Source of the DNA: a virus
DNA: 47,800 bases
Virus genome (UHGV): UHGV-0066790
Direction: 5' to 3' (one strand)
The translations under genes were made by a program, and so were the position numbers. This document shows, one piece after another, positions 495-36,680 of this stretch. Every line of letters begins with the position of its first letter. Within the stretch, counting starts at the first letter, position 1. The notes beneath the pieces were generated by a model. The model was given only the letters and a program-made list of their open reading frames with translations, had not been told where the DNA came from and made no database searches.

Positions 495-1178
495 ATGGAA
501 GCGAAGATTTACAGCGCGATCATCGCGGTCATGCGGGATTGCGGCTCCATCGGCAAGGACAGGCAGACCAGCGGGTTCGCCTCCTTCAAGTTCCGGGGGA
601 TCGACGATGTGTACAACGCCCTGCATCCGGTCATGTCCCAACATGGCGTGTTCTGTGTGCCGGAGGTGCTGGAAACGACACGCGAGGAACGGGCGAACGC
701 CAAGGGCACGGTCATGGCCTATGTGACCGCGAAGGTGCGCTTCACGTTCTACGCCGAGGACGGTTCCAGCGTTCATTGTGTGACCGTGGGCGAAGCGATG
801 GACAGCGGGGACAAGGCATTGCCCAAGGCGCAGTCCATTGCCATGAAGTACGCCATGTTCCAGACGTTCTGCATCCCTACGGAGGAGATGCCCGACCCGG
901 ACGCCGAAACGGACCATCTCGCCCCCAGAAACGGGGCCGCACAGCAACGGGCAAAGGCGAAGGCGGAAAACGCCAGCCCGATGACGCAGGAGCAGTCAAA
1001 GGCGCTCATGGCCTATCTGACAAAACGGCATGGTGACAGCCGCGAGGCGTATCTTTCCGAACTTTCACAATTCTTTGGGCGGCCTCTTTCAAGTTCCCGT
1101 GAACTGACGAAGGCCGATGTTTCCGAATTTCTGAACGCCATCAACGGAGGACACAATGGCCAGCCTCAATCGTGTTGA
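495..1178 (+). CDS. ERF-family single-strand annealing protein (recombinase)
   Basis: Motifs FKFRGIDDV, GEAMDSGDKALPKAQSIAMKYAMFQTFCIPTEE are typical of the ERF superfamily. It sits directly upstream of ssb, the usual phage recombination module. Confidence 0.65.
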   Translation: MEAKIYSAIIAVMRDCGSIGKDRQTSGFASFKFRGIDDVYNALHPVMSQHGVFCVPEVLETTREERANAKGTVMAYVTAKVRFTFYAEDGSSVHCVTVGEAMDSGDKALPKAQSIAMKYAMFQTFCIPTEEMPDPDAETDHLAPRNGAAQQRAKAKAENASPMTQEQSKALMAYLTKRHGDSREAYLSELSQFFGRPLSSSRELTKADVSEFLNAINGGHNGQPQSC

Positions 1179-1551
1179 AATCATCGGACGCCTCGGGCGC
1201 GAACCCGAACTCAAATATTCCCAGAGCGGCGCGGCGATCTGCCGCCTCAATGTCGCTACCGACGAAAGCTACACGGATAGGGAGGGGAACCGGGTTCAAA
1301 AGGCCGAATGGCACAGCGTCGTTGTGTTCCAGAAGGCCGCCGAACATTGCGGCCAGTACCTGAGCAAGGGGAGCCTTATATTCGTGGAGGGCTCGTTGTC
1401 CACGCGGGAATGGCAGGATCAGCAGGGACAGAAGCGCTACACTACGGAAATCAAAGCGCAGCGCATCCAATTCCTCGACAAAAAGGATGGAGGAAAATCC
1501 GGTTCATCCTTCCCCTCTGAATCTTCCGGCATGGACACTATGCCCTTCTAG
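1156..1551 (+). CDS. ssb: Single-stranded DNA-binding protein
   Basis: OB-fold N-terminus MASLNRVEIIGRLGREPELKY, Gly/Ser-rich tail and the acidic C-terminal tip MDTMPF (DxxPF-like). Confidence 0.85.
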   Translation: MASLNRVEIIGRLGREPELKYSQSGAAICRLNVATDESYTDREGNRVQKAEWHSVVVFQKAAEHCGQYLSKGSLIFVEGSLSTREWQDQQGQKRYTTEIKAQRIQFLDKKDGGKSGSSFPSESSGMDTMPF

Positions 1552-1561
1552 TAGGTGAAAC

Positions 1562-2059
1562 ATGCCGACTTTCAACGAAATTCAGCAAGAACTCGCCGGG
1601 ATGCTTTCTATTCCCGATGAAGAACTTACCCCGGAACAGCGCGAGGCGATGGACGCCTACATGGATGAACTCGCTAAACTCGAAGCCGACAAGGTGGATG
1701 GGTTCGGGCAGTTCTTGAAAATTCAGTCTGCACTTGCCGAAGCTTGCAAGGAAGAGGCTAGACGCCTTGCAGCCAAGGCGAGGGCAGCGGAATCACGCCT
1801 TGCATGGCTCAAGGAACACTACACTATCGTTCTCAGGGAAAACGGCCTCAAGAAAGTATCAGGCAACGCCTACACAATCAGCGTCCGGGAATCTGAGGCG
1901 ATAGCAGTAACGGCGCAAACGGAAGAGCTTCCAGAGTTGTACCGCAGAACGAAAACAACGATGGAACCGGACAAGGCCACGATCAAAGAAGCCCTCAAGG
2001 GAGGTTTGCACATCCCCGGATGTGCTCTGGTGAAAACCTACAGCTTACAAGTACGATAA
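1562..2059 (+). CDS. Siphovirus Gp157-family protein
   Basis: 165 aa. N-terminal coiled coil (EQREAMDAYMDELAKLEADK) and C-terminal ...KATIKEALKGG..PGCALV match the Gp157 pattern. Conserved position after ssb. Confidence 0.55.
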   Translation: MPTFNEIQQELAGMLSIPDEELTPEQREAMDAYMDELAKLEADKVDGFGQFLKIQSALAEACKEEARRLAAKARAAESRLAWLKEHYTIVLRENGLKKVSGNAYTISVRESEAIAVTAQTEELPELYRRTKTTMEPDKATIKEALKGGLHIPGCALVKTYSLQVR

Positions 2060-2113
2060 CCACCCCGGCCCGGCTCACCACCGGGCCTTTCTTTTACCTA
2101 AAGGAGAACCTTT

Positions 2114-2558
2114 ATGATCAAGCTCACTGTTGAAAGTCTGTATGGCGGCGGAGCCGTGGAGCGGTTCCACGGAGAACTCGAAAAAGCCATTGCTAACATC
2201 GTTGACCCGAACACCCCTGCCAAGAAGCCTCGCAAGGTCAATCAAGTACGCCTCGAACGTGACCACCACCGTTGAAGCCAACACCGAAGATGACGGCGTT
2301 ACGCAGGCCGTCACCGTCAAGAAGGGCATTGCCGGGAAGGGAGTCGATATCCTTCCCAACCCCGTCAGACTGCGCCCCTATCGTACCTTTACCGAAGTCG
2401 AACAGCCTGAAAGCTCTTTCGTGTTCCGTTGCAAAGACAATGACGGCGTGAAGTTTGCCCTTGTTGAGGCTGACGGCGGCGCATGGAAGGGCGAGGCCAT
2501 GAAGAACATCAAGGCGTTCATGGAAGAGCACGTCCCCGGCTTGAACGTCATCGCGTAG
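2114..2558 (+). pseudogene. Hypothetical phage protein with an apparent +1 frameshift near 2265
   Basis: Strong RBS AAGGAGAACCTTT then ATG at 2114. That frame (MIKLTVESLYGGGAVERFHGELEKAIANIVDPNTPAKKPRKVNQVRLER) stops at about 2273. The +1 frame continues protein-like (TTTVEANTEDDGVTQAVTVKKGIAGKG...) to 2558, and the start of the second frame looks like an antisense artefact. Confidence 0.4.
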
Positions 2559-2568
2559 CACCCCACGC

Positions 2569-2596
2569 CCCGCCCTCCCCCGGCGGGGCTTTTCAT
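2569..2596 (+). terminator. Rho-independent terminator
   Basis: GC hairpin CCCCGCCCTCCCCCGGCGGGG followed by CTTTTC. Confidence 0.5.
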
Positions 2597-2638
2597 ACCC
2601 CAAACCGTGGGCCGCGCATACGAATCACGCGGGATGAT

Positions 2639-2872
2639 ATGCAACAAGTCACAAAAGAAAGCGTAAACTGGCATGAGTACGCACCAGCAAGAAATTGTGA
2701 GAATTGCCAGTATGGTAGACGTATTGATGTATATCAGTGCGTCTACCGCTGTGAGCTTAACGATTGGAATACCGGAGCACTGTCAATCTGCGATAAATGG
2801 ACGAAAAAGGCGGAATGGCCAAATGGGAAAGGCGGCTCACGTGGGTGTGGGTCGCCTTCTTTCTTTGGATAG
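2639..2872 (+). CDS. Small Cys-rich hypothetical protein
   Basis: ATG at 2639 (MQQVTKESVNWHEY...). CxxC..C pattern (CENCQYG...CVYRC). Confidence 0.45.
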   Translation: MQQVTKESVNWHEYAPARNCENCQYGRRIDVYQCVYRCELNDWNTGALSICDKWTKKAEWPNGKGGSRGCGSPSFFG

Positions 2873-2923
2873 TATGGATGGTGTGCAGGGGCGCGGCTGC
2901 ATGAACAACGCGCGGGGTAACAT

Positions 2924-3226
2924 ATGCTGACGGAACAGGAAAGGAAGTGGCTGGAGTTTCGGAAGTACAGAAAGGCACCATGCGGAGATGAAACGCATCA
3001 TTGCGTAGGATGCTTGGTAAGGTGTGGGTGCTCTCTCACTCCGGATTGGATAGACGCCGCCGAGTTCGAAGCACGTGTATCACGGTGTATCGCTGGGAAT
3101 GCATCAGAACTAGATATGATATCTAACAACTTGCAGTTCCTTGATGGTTTCAAAGCCAAAAGCCTAGCGTGGTACATCCTGCGGGAAGCGCGCATTGCCG
3201 TTGAAGAGGAGATGGACAATGAGTGA
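2924..3226 (+). CDS. Cys-rich hypothetical protein
   Basis: 100-aa ORF with CGDETHHCVGCLVRCGC cluster. Confidence 0.45.
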   Translation: MLTEQERKWLEFRKYRKAPCGDETHHCVGCLVRCGCSLTPDWIDAAEFEARVSRCIAGNASELDMISNNLQFLDGFKAKSLAWYILREARIAVEEEMDNE

Positions 3227-3428
3227 AACCTCCCTTGAATCCATTATGCAGTGCTCAAAAGAGGCAATCGCGCGGGCGTATATGTGCCGGGAAACGTTTG
3301 AGACACAACAAGAATGTCCTGAAAGATGTCCCAACGGATCGTGTGTGATAGGAAGAGGTCTTTGTTGGGCCGTAACCCCACAGGACTGGGAAAAGGTGCT
3401 GAACAGCGTGCAGGAGGAGAGAGGATGA
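3219..3428 (+). CDS. Small Cys-rich hypothetical protein
   Basis: Internal ATG with GAGGAG RBS. MSETSLESIMQCSKEAIARAYMCRETFETQQECPERCPNGSC. Overlaps the previous stop. Confidence 0.35.
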   Translation: MSETSLESIMQCSKEAIARAYMCRETFETQQECPERCPNGSCVIGRGLCWAVTPQDWEKVLNSVQEERG

Positions 3429-3772
3429 CCGCACAGGAATGGATTGACGAACTGGAAAGGCTGAGGGAGGCGGCGATCATGCCGCCCTATTATCTCAGGA
3501 AGAAACTCTTTTTTGGAGAGGATGAAGAAGAATACTACATCACCGATAAAGAAGAGCGCATCATCTGCCGGATGAAATACATGTCCACAGAACCGGACAA
3601 CGCCGCATACATCGTAGCCGCGTGTAACGCCGTGCCGAGGCTGGTGGAGATGCTCAGGATTGCTGTGAGTCTTATTGAAGCTCAGAATGCACAGAGAGCA
3701 CGCAAAGGAGAAAGAATACCAGATATCGACGTGATGCAGTTGCTTTTTACCATGACGGAGCCGAAAGAATGA
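3425..3772 (+). CDS. Hypothetical protein
   Basis: ATG at 3425 after GGAGGAGAGAGG. Translationally coupled to the neighbouring genes. Confidence 0.45.
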   Translation: MTAQEWIDELERLREAAIMPPYYLRKKLFFGEDEEEYYITDKEERIICRMKYMSTEPDNAAYIVAACNAVPRLVEMLRIAVSLIEAQNAQRARKGERIPDIDVMQLLFTMTEPKE

Positions 3773-4329
3773 TCACCACCGCAGAACTCGCCCGCATCCG
3801 GGCCGCCGCCATTGGCGACATGCTAGGAGACTCCAAGGAGCTCGACAAACTTGGTCCGGCGGCTACGGTTTTCAGGCTGTGCCGGGAATTGGAACTAGCT
3901 AGGAAACACGCCGTCACCATGTCAGAAGTGGCAGCCGCAGCGTGGGGCGGGGAAATCCCGTCACCGTTGCCCGGTCATGTTTCCAGTGAAGAAAAAATGG
4001 AGGAAATGTTTGACCGCCTGAATTGCCCTTTCTGCGGAGGGTCTGGTCACGTTGACGACTGCGACGAGATACAGATCAAACTCCTGCGAGAGCTCAAAAT
4101 AGTTCAACTCTATTCTGTACTGAATCGTCTTGTTTCTTTCGCGGACAATCAAATTTGCAGACATGAGGAAACGCATCGAGGAGGACTTATCTGGGAGATA
4201 TGCGATTTCTGCGGGACAAAGTGGGCCGATGATGAAGGTGGAAAGCCTGAGTTTGTGGAACCAAAAGAGATAAGTGATGCTTACTGTGCTCTTGTGGAAA
4301 TAGAAAAAATCATCGGAGAAAGAAAATGA
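3769..4329 (+). CDS. Hypothetical zinc-ribbon protein
   Basis: 186 aa with CPFCGG...C and CDFCG motifs. ATGA overlap with the upstream gene. The 3' half is AT-rich. Confidence 0.5.
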   Translation: MITTAELARIRAAAIGDMLGDSKELDKLGPAATVFRLCRELELARKHAVTMSEVAAAAWGGEIPSPLPGHVSSEEKMEEMFDRLNCPFCGGSGHVDDCDEIQIKLLRELKIVQLYSVLNRLVSFADNQICRHEETHRGGLIWEICDFCGTKWADDEGGKPEFVEPKEISDAYCALVEIEKIIGERK

Positions 4330-4676
4330 ACCTAACAAAAGAAGAGCGCGACCAGTGGCGCGAAAGACTGTTATCCTCATACACATGTTTCGATGCAGAA
4401 CACGCGACTTTCACCATCCGGCTACTTAATGCGCTGAACCAAGCCGAGGAAGAAATAGCACGGCTGGAGCAAGAAGTATTTTTCTGGCGTGAAGAGACTA
4501 AAGACGTGCGAGAAGTCTTCACCAGACAGCTAGGCTATAAAGACGCAGAGATAGCACGGTTTGAGAGAGAGTTGCACTGGCTGGCGACTATAGCGTTTGA
4601 CGGGACGGCGGGGATTTATGACAGTCCAGAAAGGCTCATGGAAGCCGCACGCGAGGCCGTGGAGAAAGGCAGATGA
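4326..4676 (+). CDS. Hypothetical protein
   Basis: 116-aa ORF with ATGA coupling to both neighbours. Confidence 0.5.
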   Translation: MNLTKEERDQWRERLLSSYTCFDAEHATFTIRLLNALNQAEEEIARLEQEVFFWREETKDVREVFTRQLGYKDAEIARFERELHWLATIAFDGTAGIYDSPERLMEAAREAVEKGR

Positions 4677-4990
4677 ACACCACAGTACAAAAAGCCATTC
4701 AAGATGGGATGAAAGCAACTGGGATAACACAAACTGAACTAGCCATTGTTTTACGCAGCAGAGCGCGTGCTTCCGAGATTATTAATGGGAAAAGGGATCT
4801 AAGGAGGACTGAACTGCTTGTACTTTCATATCTGCTCCATATCCCGCTTGAAACGCTGATGCCTCCTCTTAGTGAAGAGGATAAGCTGCATATCGACTCG
4901 CTTATTGCTTGGGAGAGAAAACTTCAAGAGACAAGATATATAAAAAAAAGAGCTTCTAAACGGAGTAAGAAATCATGTCCGAAGAACTGA
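4673..4990 (+). CDS. XRE-type helix-turn-helix DNA-binding protein
   Basis: HTH signature GITQTELAIVLRSRARASEIINGKRDL. Confidence 0.55.
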   Translation: MNTTVQKAIQDGMKATGITQTELAIVLRSRARASEIINGKRDLRRTELLVLSYLLHIPLETLMPPLSEEDKLHIDSLIAWERKLQETRYIKKRASKRSKKSCPKN

Positions 4991-5343
4991 CGTTGCTACC
5001 GTTACCGTGCCCGGCGTGTGGGCACCCTGCCGGAATTGCTAGAGCGAACGGTACAGGCTGTGCGTTCGTCATGTGCCAACATGTGAAATGCGCATTTAGT
5101 GGACCCATCAAAACAACGAGTGAAGCCGCCGTTGCCGCATGGAACAACCTGCCCCGAGCGCTGGAGTGGACGCGCGATCCACAATTGGGAGCATGGAATT
5201 GGTGGAGGGATGAATATAGCCGCATCCCTCGGTACGTCTATCAAGATGGAACCGTCGATATCGCTATGCAGATTGACCGTGTATCCTATCAAGATCTTGG
5301 TGGACAATGGTGCCCCATACCCGAACCCCGCGAGAGGATATGA
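4975..5343 (+). CDS. Lar-family restriction alleviation protein
   Basis: N-terminal LPCPACGH...C...C then AAVAAWNNLPRA, resembling the Lar family signature. Confidence 0.55.
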   Translation: MSEELTLLPLPCPACGHPAGIARANGTGCAFVMCQHVKCAFSGPIKTTSEAAVAAWNNLPRALEWTRDPQLGAWNWWRDEYSRIPRYVYQDGTVDIAMQIDRVSYQDLGGQWCPIPEPRERI

Positions 5344-31856: not shown

Positions 31857-32603
31857 ATGTACAAAAGCATCATGGTGTTTCTGCTGGCCGCGCTGGTTAT
31901 GACGTCCGAGGCGCAGGCCGCGGGCAACGAATGGAACGATTCGTTCAGCAAGGCCAAGAAGACGCTGGAACGGCAGGTCTATTATGACCATCGGATCACG
32001 CTCTACTGCGGGGCGGCGTTCGACGAGAAGAAGAACGTCACCCTGCCGGAGGGTTTTACTGCCGCGAAGCACGAGAAGCGGGCCGGGAAGGTGGAATGGG
32101 AACACGTGGTCCCCGCCGAGAACTTCGGGCAGGCTTTTCCGGAGTGGCGCGAGGGGGACGCACAGTGCGTGGACGCGAAGGGGAAGGCATTCAAGGGCCG
32201 CAAGTGCGCGGAAAAGGTGAACCGGGAATACCGCCTCATGCAAAGCGACATGTACAACCTCTATCCGGCCATCGGTGCGGTCAACGCCCTGCGCCAGAAT
32301 TACAACTTCCAGATGCTGCCCGGCGAGGAGCCGGATTTCGGAAGCTGCGGGATGAAGATCGCCGACCGCAGGGCCGAGCCGCCCGTCCGGGCGCGGGGAC
32401 AAATTGCCCGGACCTACAAGTATATGGCCGACGCCTACGCCCCGCGCTACCGCATGAGCCGCCAGCAGACGCAGCTCATGGACGCATGGGACAAGATGTA
32501 TCCGGTTGATGCGTGGGAATGCACGCGGGCCAGACGTATTGAAAGACTACAAGGTAACGAGAACCCTTTTGTGAAGGAAAGATGTCAAGAAGCAGAACTC
32601 TAA
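31857..32603 (+). CDS. endA: Secreted endonuclease I (EndA family)
   Basis: Signal peptide MYKSIMVFLLAALVMTSEAQA. Blocks VEWEHVVPA, SDMYNLYPA, EPPVRARGQIARTYKYM and SRQQTQLMDAWDKMYPVDAWECTRARRIERLQGNENPFVKERCQ closely match E. coli EndA. RBS AGGGAGGT. Confidence 0.85.
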   Translation: MYKSIMVFLLAALVMTSEAQAAGNEWNDSFSKAKKTLERQVYYDHRITLYCGAAFDEKKNVTLPEGFTAAKHEKRAGKVEWEHVVPAENFGQAFPEWREGDAQCVDAKGKAFKGRKCAEKVNREYRLMQSDMYNLYPAIGAVNALRQNYNFQMLPGEEPDFGSCGMKIADRRAEPPVRARGQIARTYKYMADAYAPRYRMSRQQTQLMDAWDKMYPVDAWECTRARRIERLQGNENPFVKERCQEAEL

Positions 32604-32617
32604 CTCTTTACATTCAT

Positions 32618-35600
32618 TTATATTCTCCTTCCCATACGTGGCTGATTGAGGATGGCGGGGTTGATGCACATGGGCCGCTTGGTATCGAAATCACGCAGCG
32701 CCTGTGTTGTGGCGTCCACTTGGTCGTCGTGGGGCGCACCGGGGAACTGTGTCAGTTCCGCGACGTACTCCCGCGCCCACGGGCAATGCTCAGGGTGCGG
32801 GAGCAGGACGTTCCCGGCCTCGAAGAACGTGGTCACGGCATGGGCCCGGGCCGTCTTGCTGCCGTCCGGCTCCACGGGGATGATACCGGGCACAGCATGT
32901 TTCAGCGCGTCGATAACCGCCGGGCCGTTGGCCTTATCCTCCACCAGCTTACGGGCTGCGCCGGGCCATTTAGCGGCGAGCGCCCGGAACGCGGCGACCG
33001 TATCCGTAAATCCCATGCGCCGCCGGACCTGATCGAGGAGGTAGCGGTCGGCCCCCTTGCGGCCCCACACCTGCCCCACAACAAAGTCGGTATCGTCGCC
33101 GTCTTTGAACGTCATATCCCACGAGATAAGGAGCTGGTCGAACTGCTCCGGAAGGTCTTTGGGGAGCCAGAACCGCAGCCACTCGGATTTGAATATGGCG
33201 CCGCCGTCTGGCGTAGGCCGCTGCTGGTACAGGGCTTCCCAGTCGCGTGTGCCGAGGGCTTTCTTAATGGCAAGAAGCTGCTCCAACGGGTAGCGTTCAG
33301 GGTGTAAGGCTTCACCTGCCCTACGGTGCAGCTCGTCTTCCGTTGCGATGGCGGGGAAGTTCACTACGCGCCAGTGGTCGCCCTCCCCCCGTGCGGCGGC
33401 CTCAAGCAGCCGCCCTGAGAGGTCAGCCATGTGCCAGCGAGTGTTGATGATGAGCACCCCTCCACCGGGCGCGAGGCGCGTGTACAGCGTGGACGTGTAC
33501 CAGTCCCAGACGTTCTGGCGGATGGTCGGGGAATCGGCGGACGCCCGGTCCTTGAACGGGTCGTCGATGATAGCGCAGTTGTGGACAAGGACACCGCCGG
33601 CAAAGAAGTTCTGATTACGTGCTACTTGGATATCAACAAAACGGCGTGCTGTTCCGTATATTCGCGCAATGTTGGCAATATGTCCCGCTTGTACTGTTCT
33701 TCTTTCATGCCGTGCAAGATCCTGTGGCACTTGCTGCACAGCGTAATCAAGTTTGTCGCAACATTGTTGATCGGAATAAGATCCATGTGATGAACCTCCA
33801 ACCGTGTTTCCTCCTTGCCACATAGAACACAACGATGCTGATCCCTGTCTAAAATCAAAGGCCGAAACTGTCGGAATGCCCGCGCAGAGTGCACCTGTTC
33901 CCGCAAGGGAGTCATGCCGTGACGGTATCGGGGATTCCCCTTGCCAGACATCAGAATAGAGTGTGCAATTTCGCTGCACCGCTTGCTGCAATACTTGGCA
34001 AAAATACCGCGTCCCCTGTGGGCAGACATAAAGAGCTTGTTGCAGATAGGGCAAATTTTTTCTCTGGGCTGATGCTCGACAGGGACCTGGCTCGGCTTCT
34101 TGAATTTTGCGGCACATTCCGGGCAGGTCTTTGCCCCTTTGGTTCTCCCTGTGTGTTTGATGATCCGTCCACAACCGGGGCACGTCTTGCTGTTCTTGAC
34201 TGCATGATGGGCACAAGAATGTTCCTTGCAGCAGTAGAAATCTTTCATCCCCTTCCTGATATTTTTGGCCACCACATAAGCCGGCCTCACAAACTCCAGG
34301 CCACACCAGGCACAAGATAGGATCACCCGTGGCAATTGATGATGCAGGGGTATATTCCCCCCGTGAAAAGATCGGATGGTTTCCTGTAACTTCAAGAACT
34401 CTGCCAAGGGCATCGCGTAATCGGTAGCTTTCTTCTGCATATCGATCCTTTACCGCTATCACTATATCAGTTTCAATTTCCCCCGTTTGATGATTGTATG
34501 ATAGCACGTTATCCCCGACTTGTAGGGTCTCGATAGCGCGATCTCCGTCAGGAGTCGCAATTTGTGTTCCAATGACAACGCATTCCGCACCCATGCCCGT
34601 GATGCCGCCGCCCACGCCAGCGGAACGGTAGCAGCCAGCGTGCCCCACCACCTCGAATATGTCCGAATTGCGGAGGTAGGAGCCGTTCCCGACTGTGCGG
34701 ATGTTCTTGCCGTACAGCGCCGTGCCGGGAAAAAGTTCCCGATATTCCGGGCTGTCGATGACGCGCTGCACGTCGCGGTTCATGCGCGAGGACAGGTCGG
34801 CGGCGTAGCTTGTGGAGATAATGGAGAGATCGGGGTAACGGCCCAAGGCGTAGGCCGGGAAACGGCGGGAGGCCAGCTCGCTATTGTGGGTTATCGTAAG
34901 GTGTTTGCCAACTAAATATAAGCCATCTGGACTATCCACCTGAATACAATTCCCCATTTTAGGCGACTCTAGCGCTCGTACACATTTGATGGATACGCGC
35001 CGACGCAGAGAAGAAAACGTTTTATTAACTTTTTTCCGTTCAAGTCTGCACGGGACAACTACACCGGAAAAGAAAAATGACACCACATAAACCTGTGACT
35101 TATTTTTAATCGTTCTTTCCCGATTATCTAGTGCTGGGATATTTGTATGCGCTACAAACCCGCATAGCATGGCCAATTCTTCTACATCATGCGCTAACAG
35201 CTCATTGGATGTTGTAAAACGATATCTGTTTGTCTTTCTATCAAAATGACCATCCGTATCAATAAGTCCAGCAAGCAAGTCAAGCCTGTTTTCTAGGCTA
35301 TCATGCTTGTACTCATTAGGAATATGTTTATTTTTTAGCAGATCAGCATCTTTTAGAGCCTGCGAAAATATATTTCTTCTATTTTTCACGCCGCTGGCAA
35401 ATGAAAAAGTTTCAACTCCAGTATCTCTATGCACCCATGTTCCAGTTATTGGCACACCTAGTCGTTCAAACTCCATTTTGACGACACAAGCGTCATCAGG
35501 AGCCATGTTTATTCTGGGCGCGATTGACGTTCCATCACCTAACCACACGCCCAAAACGTATGGCGGGATAACGTGTTCTACGGCAGGCCATTGGGGAGCA

Positions 35601-36151
35601 TCAGCTGTGTCCACCTGATACAAATACCTGTGCCCTCTGGTGTCTGGGATACCGCTATCCAGCTTCCTAAGCGCCTTAGTTTTTTTGCTTGGCTCCACAA
35701 AGTATCGTGTCTCAACTGTTCTATATCCGGGTTTAGTCCTGTCATACACCCGCCACTCATGATCAAGGTGCACATCTATTATGTCGCCATTGGTAAAAAC
35801 AACAGAATGAGTGGCAAAATTTTTCTCGCCCACAGCAACAACCCTCACAGGTTTGCCACTTGGGTGAAATACATAATCACCAACCTTAAGCGCACCATGA
35901 GTTTTCCACCCATCAACCGTCAAAACAGGAGTATCATCAGCGCACAGTTTCCCATGTCGCGGCGGCATGGTCAGCATGAGGCGCGGGGAACGTCCGGCCA
36001 CGACATCGGCAAGGAAGGCGTCCAGCTCGGAACAGATTTCCTCATGCACCCATCCCATCTTGTAGCCGGGCATGGTGTAGCGCACGAAGGCCGCGAGGCA
36101 ACTCCGGGCCAGCGCCTTCCTGATGTCGGCAAGGATGGATGGGCTACTCAT
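32618..36151 (-). CDS. terL: Terminase large subunit interrupted by two inteins
   Basis: Exteins: residues 1-69 (…MPPRHGKL, P-loop), 424-523 (…GHAGCYRSAGVGGGITGMGAE), 859-1177 (CAIIDDP... nuclease domain with HDDQVDATTQAL). Confidence 0.8.
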   Translation of the reverse strand: MSSPSILADIRKALARSCLAAFVRYTMPGYKMGWVHEEICSELDAFLADVVAGRSPRLMLTMPPRHGKLCADDTPVLTVDGWKTHGALKVGDYVFHPSGKPVRVVAVGEKNFATHSVVFTNGDIIDVHLDHEWRVYDRTKPGYRTVETRYFVEPSKKTKALRKLDSGIPDTRGHRYLYQVDTADAPQWPAVEHVIPPYVLGVWLGDGTSIAPRINMAPDDACVVKMEFERLGVPITGTWVHRDTGVETFSFASGVKNRRNIFSQALKDADLLKNKHIPNEYKHDSLENRLDLLAGLIDTDGHFDRKTNRYRFTTSNELLAHDVEELAMLCGFVAHTNIPALDNRERTIKNKSQVYVVSFFFSGVVVPCRLERKKVNKTFSSLRRRVSIKCVRALESPKMGNCIQVDSPDGLYLVGKHLTITHNSELASRRFPAYALGRYPDLSIISTSYAADLSSRMNRDVQRVIDSPEYRELFPGTALYGKNIRTVGNGSYLRNSDIFEVVGHAGCYRSAGVGGGITGMGAECVVIGTQIATPDGDRAIETLQVGDNVLSYNHQTGEIETDIVIAVKDRYAEESYRLRDALGRVLEVTGNHPIFSRGEYTPASSIATGDPILCLVWPGVCEAGLCGGQKYQEGDERFLLLQGTFLCPSCSQEQQDVPRLWTDHQTHRENQRGKDLPGMCRKIQEAEPGPCRASAQRKNLPYLQQALYVCPQGTRYFCQVLQQAVQRNCTLYSDVWQGESPIPSRHDSLAGTGALCAGIPTVSAFDFRQGSASLCSMWQGGNTVGGSSHGSYSDQQCCDKLDYAVQQVPQDLARHERRTVQAGHIANIARIYGTARRFVDIQVARNQNFFAGGVLVHNCAIIDDPFKDRASADSPTIRQNVWDWYTSTLYTRLAPGGGVLIINTRWHMADLSGRLLEAAARGEGDHWRVVNFPAIATEDELHRRAGEALHPERYPLEQLLAIKKALGTRDWEALYQQRPTPDGGAIFKSEWLRFWLPKDLPEQFDQLLISWDMTFKDGDDTDFVVGQVWGRKGADRYLLDQVRRRMGFTDTVAAFRALAAKWPGAARKLVEDKANGPAVIDALKHAVPGIIPVEPDGSKTARAHAVTTFFEAGNVLLPHPEHCPWAREYVAELTQFPGAPHDDQVDATTQALRDFDTKRPMCINPAILNQPRMGRRI
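33578..34582 (-). mobile_element. Intein 2 (Hint domain) in the terL Walker B site
   Basis: Begins CVVIGTQIATPDG, block B TGNHPIF, ends FVDIQVARNQNFFAGGVLVHN before Cys. The central region in the terL frame is low-complexity. Confidence 0.6.
33622..34440 (-). CDS. HNH endonuclease with Zn-ribbon repeats, encoded in a different frame inside intein 2
   Basis: Multiple CxxC pairs. C-terminal HNH motif CVLCGKEETRLEVHHMDLIPINNVATNLITLCSKCHRILHG. Frame is +1 relative to terL. Confidence 0.65.
   Translation of the reverse strand: MQKKATDYAMPLAEFLKLQETIRSFHGGNIPLHHQLPRVILSCAWCGLEFVRPAYVVAKNIRKGMKDFYCCKEHSCAHHAVKNSKTCPGCGRIIKHTGRTKGAKTCPECAAKFKKPSQVPVEHQPREKICPICNKLFMSAHRGRGIFAKYCSKRCSEIAHSILMSGKGNPRYRHGMTPLREQVHSARAFRQFRPLILDRDQHRCVLCGKEETRLEVHHMDLIPINNVATNLITLCSKCHRILHGMKEEQYKRDILPTLREYTEQHAVLLISK
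34883..35944 (-). mobile_element. Intein 1 (Hint + double LAGLIDADG homing endonuclease) in the terL Walker A site
   Basis: Begins CADDTPVLTVDGW, contains LGVWLGDGTS and LLAGLIDTDGHF, ends ...VGKHLTITHN before Ser. Confidence 0.7.
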
Positions 36152-36680
36152 GATCCGGCGTTTTGAAGGCTTCCTTCGTCAGGCGAAGCAGCTCGTCCGG
36201 GGAGAGGCGTGAGAGATCCACCGGACGCTGAGAGAGGGAACCGTCGGATGAAGTGTGATCCAAGGCGGTTTTGTCCACGATGCCCCACGCCTTGCGCTCT
36301 CCCTCCTGCCGGATCTTAATCGTCTCGGCGGTAATCTTGGCGAGCTTGGCCTTGTCGAAGCTGCCTTCGGACAACGCCTCATCCATAATGGCCTGATGCC
36401 GATCCCACTCCCGCTGATGGCGGGTGATGACGGCGGCCTTGGCTTCGGCGGCGCGGTCCAAGGCTTCGGCCTTTTTTTGAGGGTTGCAGCCTGCAACCAC
36501 GCCCGCAACCTTGGCCTCTGCCATGCGGTTCACGGTGCCGGAAATATCCTGCACCCAGCCTTCGGCCCGGATGCGCTTTTGGATGGCCGTCCGGCTCACA
36601 CCGTACCGCTTGGACAGATCGGACTGGCTCGCCCCCACTTCGTATTCGGCCCGGATGGATTCCCAATCAAATCGTGCCAT
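36144..36680 (-). CDS. terS: Terminase small subunit
   Basis: N-terminal HTH SQSDLSKRYGVSRTAIQKRIRAEGW. Overlaps the terL start by 8 nt. Confidence 0.6.
   Translation of the reverse strand: MARFDWESIRAEYEVGASQSDLSKRYGVSRTAIQKRIRAEGWVQDISGTVNRMAEAKVAGVVAGCNPQKKAEALDRAAEAKAAVITRHQREWDRHQAIMDEALSEGSFDKAKLAKITAETIKIRQEGERKAWGIVDKTALDHTSSDGSLSQRPVDLSRLSPDELLRLTKEAFKTPDHE

What the first reader, a model, noticed from the sequence alone, without database searches (positions are those of the whole stretch)
32618..36151. terL carries two inteins inserted into the ATPase Walker A and Walker B sites
The 1177-aa ORF is not a single protein. Removing residues 70-423 and 524-858 leaves a contiguous terminase large subunit. 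The first insertion starts at Cys and ends in HN before Ser; the second starts at Cys and ends in HN before Cys. Both have Hint blocks A, B, F and G. The first carries two LAGLIDADG motifs. Two inteins in one packaging ATPase, each in a catalytic motif, would make this a rare doubly invaded terL.
Basis: partly seen in the sequence, partly recalled or inferred. Interest (0 to 1): 0.7.

Follow-up and report, generated by a model that had tools for sequence, protein, structure and literature searches.

The report
Two-intein terminase with hidden HNH gene
A phage DNA-packaging gene is interrupted by two self-splicing protein elements, and the second one carries its homing nuclease as a separate gene in a shifted reading frame, an arrangement already noted in Brucella phages but little studied.

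Summary
The 1177-aa ORF (32618-36151, minus strand) is a terminase large subunit precursor with two inteins, in Walker A and at the start of the Walker B strand.

1. Intein 1 is residues 69-423, not 70-423. It starts with Leu, and Cys70 is not conserved. It is a class 3 intein: the Trp-Cys-Thr triplet is invariant in 57 of 57 relatives. It carries a LAGLIDADG endonuclease.

2. Intein 2 (524-858) is a class 1 Hint domain with no in-frame endonuclease. Its central ~200 aa are predicted disordered. A 272-aa zinc-ribbon HNH endonuclease gene (33622-34440) overlaps that stretch in the +1 frame. The HNH frame is under purifying selection. The terL frame is only kept free of stops: 0 observed against 10-20 expected, in each of eight lineages.

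3. Double invasion is not rare. Near-identical phages carry every combination of three inteins, including all three at once, and cyanophage Mic1 has a two-intein TerL.

Both inteins are 100% identical in nucleotide sequence to copies in terL genes whose exteins are only 85-96% identical, which points to recent spread.

An out-of-frame HNH inside this TerL intein was already noted for Brucella phages (2015). This is therefore a new member of a known but under-studied kind.

The parts
32618..36151 (-). terL precursor ORF, 1177 aa plus stop; mature spliced TerL predicted to be 487 aa
   Evidence: 100% identical to database protein P0001
35948..36151 (-). N-extein, aa 1-68, ending in Walker A ...PPRHGK
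   Evidence: Intein-less alleles read PPRHGK|SELASR; Terminase_6N hit
34883..35947 (-). Intein 1, aa 69-423 (355 aa): class 3 intein with LAGLIDADG homing endonuclease; GC 0.44 against 0.63-0.65 in the exteins
   Evidence: Boundary set by empty alleles. 6bs8 class 3 DnaB intein E=1.8e-10 over aa 2-66 and 316-354. Position 1 is L/Q/E/K/A; W, C, T, H and N are invariant in 57 of 57. GC.
35525..35560 (-). LAGLIDADG motif 1 (YVLGVWLGDGTS, aa 198-209)
35243..35278 (-). LAGLIDADG motif 2 (LLAGLIDTDGHF, aa 292-303)
   Evidence: Pfam LAGLIDADG_3 E=1.8e-6, Hom_end 2.9e-4; coordinates
34934..34954 (-). Intein 1 block F (GNCIQVD) with Cys402, the predicted class 3 nucleophile. Block B Trp133 lies in 35753-35770; block G Thr421-His-Asn423 lies in 34883-34897.
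34583..34882 (-). Middle extein, aa 424-523, from Ser424 of Walker A to ...GITGMGAE
33578..34582 (-). Intein 2, aa 524-858 (335 aa): class 1 intein (Cys1, TGNH block B, VHN|C) at the start of the Walker B strand; GC 0.50
   Evidence: Pfam Intein_splicing, Hint_2, PT-HINT; TIGR01445, TIGR01443. C1, T66, H69 and N335 invariant in 20 sequences. AF2 plus Foldseek give a Hint fold.
34298..34582 (-). Intein 2 Hint N-lobe (intein residues 1-95), pLDDT above 90
33704..34297 (-). Intein 2 linker in the terL frame (intein residues 96-293): no domain, pLDDT 27-41, poorly conserved, kept free of stop codons
33578..33703 (-). Intein 2 Hint C-lobe (intein residues 294-335), ending NFFAGGVLVHN
33622..34440 (-). 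Hidden gene in the +1 frame relative to terL: 272-aa zinc-ribbon HNH endonuclease, wholly inside intein 2. It overlaps the Hint N-lobe by about 48 codons and the C-lobe by about 27 codons.
   Evidence: ORF. Pfam HNH 22.3 bits (cut-off 21.4), IscB HNH region 1.3e-10. PHROG phrog_1271 'HNH endonuclease' 1.2e-26. Profile against PDB: IscB HNH 1.6e-7. Fold hits to Cap5, McrA and IscB HNH. Purifying selection in this frame.
33712..33831 (-). HNH catalytic core (CVLCG...EVHHMD...NN...NLITLC..CH..LH; HNH aa 204-243)
   Evidence: Invariant C204, C207, H217, H218, N230, C235, C238, H239; coordinates
33976..34314 (-). Three CxxC-type zinc-ribbon repeats of the HNH protein (aa 43-155)
   Evidence: PF18912 DZR_2 on homolog P0124
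34446..34450 (-). Shine-Dalgarno-like AAGGA, 5 nt upstream of the HNH ATG (34438-34440). The ATG lies inside the Hint codons Arg-Tyr-Ala (cgaTATGca). A TAA in the HNH frame lies 12 nt upstream of the ATG.
   Evidence: anti-SD duplex -5.4 kcal/mol; function inferred
32621..33577 (-). C-extein, aa 859-1177: Walker B strand CAIIDDP, C-motif INTRWH (not invaded here), nuclease domain with HDDQVD (not invaded here)
   Evidence: Terminase_6N/6C, TIGR01630

Best explanation
The gene encodes a TerL precursor that must lose two inteins to rebuild its ATPase site.

Intein 1 (aa 69-423) is a class 3 intein. It has no nucleophile at position 1. The block F Cys402 is predicted to attack the Lys68-Leu69 bond, and splicing to Ser424 restores GKS. 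It carries an in-frame LAGLIDADG homing endonuclease.

Intein 2 (aa 524-858) is a class 1 Hint domain whose two lobes are joined by a roughly 200-aa unstructured linker. That linker is not a domain. It is the by-product of reading, in the terL frame, through a separate 272-aa zinc-ribbon HNH endonuclease gene that lies in the +1 frame.

Selection acts differently on the two frames. The HNH frame is conserved as a protein. The terL frame is only kept open, by avoiding T-ending HNH codons before AAN, AGN or GAN codons, so that the ribosome can reach the C-terminal Hint lobe and the rest of TerL.

The HNH protein is most likely made by internal initiation at ATG 34440, which has an AAGGA 5 nt upstream. 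It would cut terL alleles that lack the intein at the Walker B coding site. Repair from the intein-bearing copy would then spread the intein and the nuclease together (homing).

Shown computationally: boundaries, intein classes, folds, dual-frame selection, and the recent-spread signature. Inferred: splicing itself, the HNH start codon and its expression, and its cleavage specificity. The confidence given (0.8) is for the architecture (two inteins plus a selected out-of-frame HNH gene); for the internal-initiation and homing steps alone I would say about 0.6.
For: TerL and boundaries.

Class 3: position 1 is never Cys, Ser or Thr; position 2 is Cys in only 32 of 57; W, C and T are invariant in 57 of 57. 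Match to solved class 3 intein 6bs8, E=1.8e-10. The definition is from PMC5050341.

Intein 2 fold: residues 1-95 and 294-335 have pLDDT above 90, and residues 96-293 have pLDDT 27-41. Foldseek hits mini-inteins (Mtu RecA TM 0.83, Ssp DnaB, gp41-1) at E from 1e-6 to 1e-4.

HNH identity.

Dual coding: synonymous-codon permutation of the HNH ORF predicts 9.7-20 stops in the terL frame. The observed number is 0 in eight lineages, and 0 of 3000-5000 permutations are open. The third frame has 5-36 stops. T at the third codon position before AAN/AGN/GAN is 0/67, 0/54 and 0/74, against 60/204, 62/215 and 47/220 elsewhere. In the centre, amino-acid identity is 0.66 in the HNH frame against 0.30 in the terL frame (window vs L001), and nucleotide differences by HNH codon position are 49/46/122.

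Mobility: intein 1 is 1062/1062 nt and intein 2 is 1005/1005 nt identical to copies in terL genes whose exteins are 85-96% identical. All occupancy combinations exist. Decayed HNH variants still have both frames open.

No intron.
Against: There is no experimental evidence for splicing, HNH expression or cleavage.

The Pfam HNH score for the window protein is only just above the cut-off (22.3 against 21.4). The HNH model has mean pLDDT 69, and its Foldseek E-values are about 5e-3.

The Shine-Dalgarno signal is not universal. It is good in the window, L004, L006 and L008, weak in L003, and absent in L001. No promoter-like site was found on the coding strand.

A 200-aa disordered linker might slow splicing.

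In Brucella phage Pr, the stop-free +1 stretch lacks the N-terminal part that the window HNH ORF has. The start position is therefore not fixed across the family.
Confidence: 0.8

Rival explanations
1. Intein 2 is an ordinary intein with an in-frame HNH domain. The apparent frame shift would be a sequencing or assembly artefact made of two compensating indels.
For: In-frame HNH inteins are known (cited in the preprint read). Metagenomic assemblies can contain indels.
Against: The same +1 relationship occurs in independent assemblies and in cultured phages: window, L001, L003, L006, L008/L009, L013, L014, L015, Brucella phage Pr, Gordonia phage Clown. The terL frame has 0 stops where 10-20 are expected. 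The P0001 cluster has 45 member sequences. The HNH ORF has its own stop before block G and a stop 12 nt upstream of its ATG.
Confidence: 0.02
2. The +1 ORF is a dead relic. Intein 2 would be a fixed mini-intein with a junk linker that no longer makes a nuclease or moves.
For: Decayed versions exist. L004 lacks the HNH catalytic motif and L005 lacks two zinc ribbons. The Shine-Dalgarno signal is weak or absent in some lineages.
Against: In the window, all Zn and HNH residues that are invariant across the family are intact. The HNH frame shows clear purifying selection. The intein is 1005/1005 nt identical to a copy in a terL whose exteins differ by 4-12%. It is present or absent among near-identical phages.
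Confidence: 0.1
3. The HNH protein is not a homing enzyme. It would be a packaging cofactor of the terminase, like the HK97-type HNH proteins encoded next to terminase genes. This was suggested for brucellaphages.
For: HNH genes commonly sit beside terS, terL and portal genes. Tevdoradze et al. raise this possibility for the brucellaphage HNH.
Against: Phages with 95-99% identical exteins lack the Walker B intein, and with it this HNH. Examples are P0003, which has only the LAGLIDADG intein, and P0010. The HNH is therefore dispensable for packaging. It always travels inside the Hint domain, and its closest profile, phrog_1271, is a general phage HNH family.
Confidence: 0.06
4. The HNH is made by programmed +1 (or -2) ribosomal frameshifting from the terL frame, giving an N-extein-Hint(N)-HNH fusion, rather than by internal initiation.
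For: The frame offset is +1 in every lineage examined. Some lineages lack a Shine-Dalgarno signal. The ORF start overlaps the translated Hint lobe.
Against: A stop in the HNH frame lies 12 nt upstream of the ATG, so any shift would have to occur at or after the ATG. No slippery site was identified, and none was systematically searched for. An ATG at intein nucleotide 143 is conserved in six sequences. A good AAGGA is present in the window.
Confidence: 0.1
5. The second insertion is a group I or group II intron carrying an HNH gene, as the Brucella phage Pr GenBank note 'intron-encoded' implies.
For: HNH genes are common in phage group I introns. The GenBank note is shown.
Against: No intron family is found in 32400-36400, even at E up to 1. 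The insertion is bounded by Hint blocks A, B, F and G with a confident Hint fold. The host frame is kept open against expectation.
Confidence: 0.01

Closest known systems
Brucella phage (Perisivirus: Tb, Pr, Bk, R/C, S708, Wb) TerL intein with overlapping HNH ORF
   Same: Same TerL family and the same Walker B insertion site (…GNRAD|C…NFFANGILVHN|CVIIDDP). The HNH ORF is in the +1 frame inside the intein and is 43% identical to the window HNH over 88% of its length. GenBank annotates both CDSs as overlapping. [quoted passage not shown]
   Different: Brucella phages have only this one intein. Their stop-free +1 stretch is shorter (235 codons) and lacks the N-terminal part present in the window. 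No analysis of dual-frame selection was found in the published text read. The GenBank note wrongly says 'intron-encoded'.
Non-canonical actinophage inteins with the homing endonuclease in a separate frame (Gosselin, Arsenault & Gogarten, bioRxiv 10.1101/2025.01.02.630785)
   Same: Hint splicing domain in the host frame. The endonuclease is encoded at the canonical endonuclease insertion region but not in frame. Often found in TerL. The proposed origin is invasion of an intein by a free-standing endonuclease gene.
   Different: The reported types are antisense LAGLIDADG, antisense VSR-like and same-strand frame-3 endonuclease VII-like. HNH is reported only in frame. Here the endonuclease is a +1 same-strand zinc-ribbon HNH, and most examples come from non-actinobacterial phages. 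The arrangement is conserved over deep divergence and does not look transitional.
ShiLan domain (out-of-frame HNH inside a mycobacteriophage DNA methylase; PMC11855218)
   Same: A hidden HNH gene in an alternate frame of a host gene whose own frame stays open. There is a signature of homing. How the HNH is translated is an open question.
   Different: ShiLan has no Hint or intein splicing domain, and the insertion is thought to remain in the protein. Here the out-of-frame region is flanked by a complete Hint domain that should remove it.
Mycobacteriophage TerL inteins at the P-loop, Walker B and C-motif (Kelley et al. 2016, PMC5050341), including class 3 inteins
   Same: A classic P-loop insertion between the invariant Lys and the Ser/Thr. 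A Walker B site. A class 3 WCT mechanism. LAGLIDADG endonucleases. Splicing and endonuclease activity were shown experimentally for representatives.
   Different: Those are single-intein TerL proteins of actinophages. The window gene combines a class 3 and a class 1 intein in one Terminase_6-type TerL.
Cyanophage Mic1 TerL with two inteins (PMC7156551)
   Same: One TerL precursor carries two different inteins.
   Different: The Mic1 inteins sit in the ATPase and nuclease domains. No out-of-frame endonuclease was reported.
Fractured genes / split inteins with a free-standing endonuclease between the halves (Dassa et al. 2009, PMC2677866)
   Same: A free-standing endonuclease gene is lodged between the N- and C-terminal intein parts (abstract; discussed).
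   Different: In those cases the host gene is broken into two ORFs and is spliced in trans. Here the host frame is continuous and is kept open by selection.

Membership tests
Terminase large subunit (Pfam Terminase_6N + Terminase_6C) | ATPase domain profile spanning Walker A, Walker B and C-motif, plus the RNaseH-like nuclease domain, once insertions are removed | tested here: met
   Concatenated exteins: Terminase_6N positions 4-215 of 215, E=8.6e-17; Terminase_6C 1.5e-15; TIGR01630 5e-22. phmmer of the exteins against PDB found no TerL structure.
Class 3 intein (intein 1) | No Cys/Ser/Thr nucleophile at intein position 1 | tested here: met
   Empty alleles read GK|SELAS, so position 1 is Leu69. 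Across 57 unique relatives, position 1 is L/Q/E/K/A.
Class 3 intein (intein 1) | Trp-Cys-Thr triplet in blocks B, F and G (definition: PMC5050341) | tested here: met
   W133, C402 and T421 are invariant in 57 of 57. They align to the same residues of the solved class 3 intein 6bs8.
Class 3 intein (intein 1) | Splicing initiated by the block F cysteine | not testable with these tools
   Needs C402A and C70A mutants in a splicing reporter.
LAGLIDADG homing endonuclease (in intein 1) | Two LAGLIDADG motifs with acidic residues, in frame between the Hint lobes | tested here: met
   LAGLIDADG_3 E=1.8e-6 and Hom_end 2.9e-4, both above cut-off. Weak PI-SceI match, 0.015. Cleavage activity was not tested.
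Class 1 intein (intein 2) | Cys1, block B TxxH, C-terminal His-Asn, and a +1 Cys/Ser/Thr | tested here: met
   C524, T589-G-N-H592, H857-N858, C859. C1, T66, H69 and N335 are invariant in 20 sequences. TIGR01445, TIGR01443 and PF14890 are above cut-off.
Class 1 intein (intein 2) | Hint fold | tested here: met
   AF2 pLDDT above 90 for residues 1-95 and 294-335. Foldseek hits to the Mtu RecA, Ssp DnaB and gp41-1 inteins.
Class 1 intein (intein 2) | Protein splicing | not testable with these tools
   Inferred from the essential host gene and the conserved catalytic residues.
Canonical bifunctional intein (endonuclease domain in frame) | Endonuclease domain translated as part of the intein polypeptide | tested here: not met
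   Intein 2 has no domain hit in its centre. pLDDT is 27-41 there. The HNH is in the +1 frame.
HNH (His-Me finger) endonuclease (hidden ORF) | HNH motif with flanking CxxC zinc site; profile and fold match | tested here: met
   PF01844 22.3 bits (cut-off 21.4); phrog_1271 1.2e-26; IscB HNH 1.6e-7 with the family profile; Foldseek probability about 1.0 to Cap5, McrA and IscB HNH, though E is about 5e-3 and pLDDT is 69. Invariant C204, C207, H217, H218, N230, C235, C238, H239.
Homing endonuclease (function of the hidden HNH) | Cleaves the intein-less allele and promotes gene conversion | not testable with these tools
   The only support is indirect: identical inteins in diverged exteins and patchy occupancy.
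Intein with out-of-frame endonuclease gene (brucellaphage TerL type) | Endonuclease ORF in another frame between the Hint lobes, with the host frame kept open; homology to the Brucella phage element at the same site | tested here: met
   description in PMC4422536.
Group I/II intron with HNH gene | Ribozyme core detectable; host frame interrupted | tested here: not met
   No Rfam intron hit at E up to 1. The host frame is open.
Split intein / fractured gene | Host gene broken into two ORFs at the intein | tested here: not met
   Single continuous 1177-aa ORF.

The most novel reading that the evidence does not exclude
The Walker B TerL intein with a +1-frame zinc-ribbon HNH may be an ancient, evolutionarily stable dual-coding element. 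It would not be a short-lived accident on the way to an in-frame fusion or a split intein. It keeps the same frame offset in phages from 37% to above 60% GC, including Brucella phages, an actinophage and many metagenomic lineages. In the same terL family, two other inteins independently hide endonucleases in the +2 frame (HNH_3 and endonuclease VII). This would mean that out-of-frame encoding is itself favoured. Possible reasons are that it uncouples nuclease dose from terminase dose and yields an untethered nuclease. It would also mean that hidden endonuclease genes inside apparently endonuclease-less inteins are widely missed by annotation.
Probability: 0.45. Interest if true: 0.65.

Novelty: new member of a known kind. 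Interest (0 to 1): 0.45.

Why it matters
The gene is a compact natural example of three layers of selfish elements in one essential phage gene. These are a class 3 LAGLIDADG intein, a class 1 intein, and a separate nuclease gene overprinted on the second intein.

The overlap leaves a clean, measurable signature: complete avoidance of stop-creating codon pairs. That signature could be used to find other hidden endonucleases in inteins that now look endonuclease-less.

The population of near-identical phages with every combination of occupied sites is a ready-made system for studying homing and the homing cycle. It includes invasion (identical inteins in diverged genes) and decay (in-frame deletions of the HNH).

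Practically, annotation pipelines call only the long ORF and miss the HNH gene. Published boundaries that are chosen because a Cys is nearby can be off by one for class 3 inteins.

Tried and rejected
- Frameshift artefact: rejected. The arrangement recurs in at least ten independent sources.
- Intron: rejected by Rfam.
- Split intein: rejected, because the ORF is continuous.
- Packaging-cofactor HNH: considered unlikely, because near-identical phages lack the element.
- phmmer of the spliced TerL against PDB gave no terminase hit. Walker motif assignment therefore rests on the Pfam alignment, on motif knowledge and on PMC5050341.
- The Pfam and NCBIfam Hint models missed intein 1. It was resolved by the PDB match and block conservation.
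- The genome-contig scan with the HNH profile found only one weak alphaproteobacterial MAG hit, so the host of the window phage was not identified. Blastn against cultured phages found only distant terL matches.
- The promoter scan found nothing on the coding strand inside intein 2.
- A literature search for 'two inteins' plus terminase found the Mic1 precedent.
- No systematic search for frameshift (slippery) sites was done.

Full report
**1. The observation**

The minus-strand ORF 32618-36151 encodes 1177 aa. It is 100% identical to a database protein that represents a 45-member cluster from metagenome assemblies. Upstream lies a small helix-turn-helix ORF, a terS candidate with only weak hits. 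Downstream lies a Phage_portal_3 portal gene.

As one piece, the ORF matches only the second half of Pfam Terminase_6N (profile positions 100-215) plus Terminase_6C. The ORF is therefore a terminase large subunit interrupted twice.

Both insertions have lower GC than the exteins: 0.44 and 0.50 against 0.63-0.65.

**2. Intein 1**

Relatives that lack this insertion read PPRHGK|SELASR. The window reads PPRHGK-LCADD…ITHN-SELASR. At the DNA level, extein homology to empty alleles stops before the Leu codon. Cutting at Cys70 would leave GKLS in place of the Walker A GKS.

In 57 unique homologous inteins at this site:
- the first residue is L, Q, E, K or A, never a nucleophile;
- the second residue is Cys in only 32;
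- the block B Trp, block F Cys, block G Thr, His and Asn are invariant.

This matches the published definition of class 3 inteins: no nucleophile at A1, and a WCT triplet (PMC5050341). The best solved relative is the class 3 DnaB intein 6bs8 (E=1.8e-10), which matches both Hint lobes. Pfam and NCBIfam Hint models did not see this intein. The two LAGLIDADG motifs and the LAGLIDADG_3 and Hom_end hits confirm an in-frame endonuclease.

**3. Intein 2**

Residues 524-858 begin with Cys and have a TGNH block B. They end in VLVHN before Cys859. They pass the curated cut-offs of PF14890, PF13403, TIGR01445 and TIGR01443.

Alleles with an empty site read GMGGH|IVIVDDPF. The window reads GMGAE-[intein]-CAIIDDPF. 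The insertion is therefore at the first residue of the Walker B beta-strand.

An AlphaFold model built with 19 homologs gives pLDDT above 90 for intein residues 1-95 and 294-335, and 27-41 for residues 96-293. The confident part superposes on mini-inteins: Mtu RecA TM 0.83, Ssp DnaB, gp41-1. No profile library finds any domain in the central roughly 200 residues of the terL frame.

**4. The hidden gene**

A 272-codon ORF (33622-34440) lies on the same strand, in the +1 frame, wholly inside intein 2. It encodes three CxxC zinc-ribbon repeats followed by an HNH motif. Its matches are:
- Pfam HNH, 22.3 bits (cut-off 21.4);
- the HNH region of IscB models;
- PHROG phrog_1271 'HNH endonuclease', E=1.2e-26 over residues 43-252;
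- as a family profile, a solved IscB HNH domain, 1.6e-7.

Its model (pLDDT 69) matches the HNH domains of Cap5, McrA and IscB with Foldseek probability about 1, although the E-values are weak.

The part homologous to free-standing HNH proteins corresponds to the disordered linker of the intein. The ORF's first ~48 codons and last ~27 codons overlap the two Hint lobes.

**5. The overlap is selected, not accidental**

The same +1 ORF is present in Walker B inteins of terL genes from independent assemblies:
- L001, L003, L006, L008/L009, L013, L014 and L015, with HNH ORF GC from 0.37 to 0.56;
- Brucella phage Pr and Gordonia phage Clown.

I permuted synonymous codons within the HNH ORF, which keeps the protein and the codon usage. 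This predicts 9.7-20 stop codons in the terL frame. The observed number is 0 in all eight metagenomic lineages, and none of 3000-5000 permutations is open. The third frame carries 5-36 stops.

The mechanism of avoidance is visible in the codons. HNH codons that precede AAN, AGN or GAN never end in T (0/67, 0/54, 0/74). Elsewhere 21-29% of codons end in T.

In the central region, pairwise amino-acid identity is much higher in the HNH frame than in the terL frame (0.66 against 0.30 for window vs L001). Nucleotide differences pile up at HNH third positions (49/46/122). The HNH frame is therefore under purifying selection as a protein, and the terL frame is only kept open.

**6. Evidence of mobility and decay**

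Intein 1 is identical at 1062 of 1062 nt to the copy in L012. Intein 2 is identical at 1005 of 1005 nt to the copy in L007. The flanking exteins of the same genes are only 85-96% identical.

Close relatives (exteins at least ~95% identical in protein) carry inteins at three sites: Walker A (a), Walker B (b) and a nuclease-domain site HDDQ|VD (c). The combinations seen are a, b, c, a+b, a+c, b+c and a+b+c (1498-1501 aa). More distant relatives also use the C-motif (TRW) site.

L004 carries an in-frame deletion that removes the HNH catalytic motif. L005 carries a deletion between repeated YCCK motifs that removes two zinc ribbons. In both, both frames stay open. This is the pattern expected for elements that cycle through invasion and decay.

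**7. How the HNH is made (inferred)**

The HNH frame has a TAA 12 nt upstream of the ATG at 34440, so the ORF cannot start earlier. AAGGA lies 5 nt upstream of the ATG. The ATG sits in the Hint codons Arg-Tyr-Ala and is at the same intein position (nt 143) in six sequences.

Shine-Dalgarno strength varies between lineages and is absent in L001. No promoter-like site was found on this strand. Internal initiation is my preferred reading. A +1 frameshift is a minority alternative. An intron is excluded by Rfam.

**8. Comparison with what is known**

- TerL inteins in the P-loop (between Lys and Ser/Thr), Walker B and C-motif, including class 3 inteins, are established. For some, splicing and cleavage were shown experimentally (PMC5050341).
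- A TerL with two inteins is published for cyanophage Mic1 (PMC7156551).
- Inteins whose endonuclease is in another frame or on the other strand were surveyed in actinophages in 2025. The types were antisense LAGLIDADG, antisense VSR-like and frame-3 endonuclease VII-like, with HNH only in frame.
- A hidden out-of-frame HNH without an intein is known as the ShiLan domain.
- Most directly, tblastn of the hidden HNH finds 41 Brucella phage genomes (43% identity). There the match lies under overlapping 'terminase large subunit' ('intein present') and 'putative HNH endonuclease' annotations, at the same Walker B site and in the same +1 frame. [quoted passage not shown]

The window element is therefore a new member of a kind that has been noted before. 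The following appear not to have been described in the papers I could search: the dual-frame selection, the breadth of the family, and its coexistence with other hidden-endonuclease inteins.

**9. Verdict**

The finding is real but needs three changes: correct the first boundary and intein class, add the hidden HNH gene, and drop the rarity claim. Interest is moderate. The overprinted nuclease gene is a striking and under-studied arrangement with a clear route to experiment, but it has precedent.

Noticed in passing
window 31857-32603 (+): A 248-aa ORF with an N-terminal signal-peptide-like sequence matches Pfam Endonuclease_1 (E=1.5e-29). It sits on the opposite strand between terL and the portal gene and is flanked by GC dips. 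Relatives L001, L005 and L012 have only 55-75 nt between terL and portal, so this looks like an inserted accessory gene (moron).
   Followed up: partly
L001 5592-6263 (also L007 5952-6623); not in the window: Relatives carry a third terL intein in the nuclease domain (HDDQ|C…VLVHN|CDATTQ). Its centre also looks like junk in the terL frame and hides a 224-codon ORF in the +2 frame that matches Pfam HNH_3 (E=1.3e-15). This is a second, unrelated out-of-frame HNH intein in the same gene family.
   Followed up: partly
L006 1361-1831: A more distant terL fragment has the Walker B intein with the +1 HNH. It also has a C-motif (…VIA|C…SHN|TRWH) intein that hides a +2-frame Endonuclease_7 ORF (E=8.2e-20). 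This is the architecture reported as new in actinophages in 2025, here in a different phage group.
   Followed up: partly
P0141 (1501 aa), P0133 (1498 aa): These terL alleles carry all three inteins (Walker A, Walker B, nuclease site) at once. About two thirds of the precursor is intein.
   Followed up: partly
L017 (Gordonia phage Clown NC_055867.1, gp5 terL, locus 1089-3848): The Clown TerL Walker B intein is cited in the 2025 survey only as the largest class 1 intein (385 aa). It has a 380-codon stop-free +1-frame stretch that encodes the same zinc-ribbon HNH (27% identity to the window HNH). I could not tell how the survey classified its endonuclease.
   Followed up: partly
L016 (Brucella phage Pr NC_019447.1, record 3170-3856): GenBank labels the overlapping HNH CDS 'intron-encoded', although it lies inside an intein and no intron is evident. 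The longest stop-free +1 stretch (235 codons) does not reach the upstream end of the tblastn match. The N-terminal part may be degenerate, or the annotated start may be uncertain.
   Followed up: partly
L004 646-3918 and L005 1811-4039: These are decay variants of the hidden HNH. L004 has lost the HNH catalytic motif. L005 has lost two zinc ribbons by a deletion between repeated YCCK motifs. Both deletions preserve both reading frames.
   Followed up: yes
P0101 (Alteromonas mediterranea DE): A 915-aa intein-containing terL homolog is named 'chaperone and heat shock protein 70' by NCBI and UniRef. This is probably a misannotation.
   Followed up: no
L012 19611-20159: A close relative of the window phage encodes a protein with a Pfam AcrIF11_ADP_ribosyl hit (a candidate anti-CRISPR) in its accessory region. 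This may hint at a host with a type I-F CRISPR system. The host of the window phage remains unidentified.
   Followed up: no
window 33889-34320 (+) and other ORFs overlapping terL on the plus strand: Several ORFs of 100-240 codons lie antisense to or overlapping terL (for example 32582-33307 and 35573-36166). They were not examined. They are most simply explained as chance open frames in GC-rich sequence.
   Followed up: no
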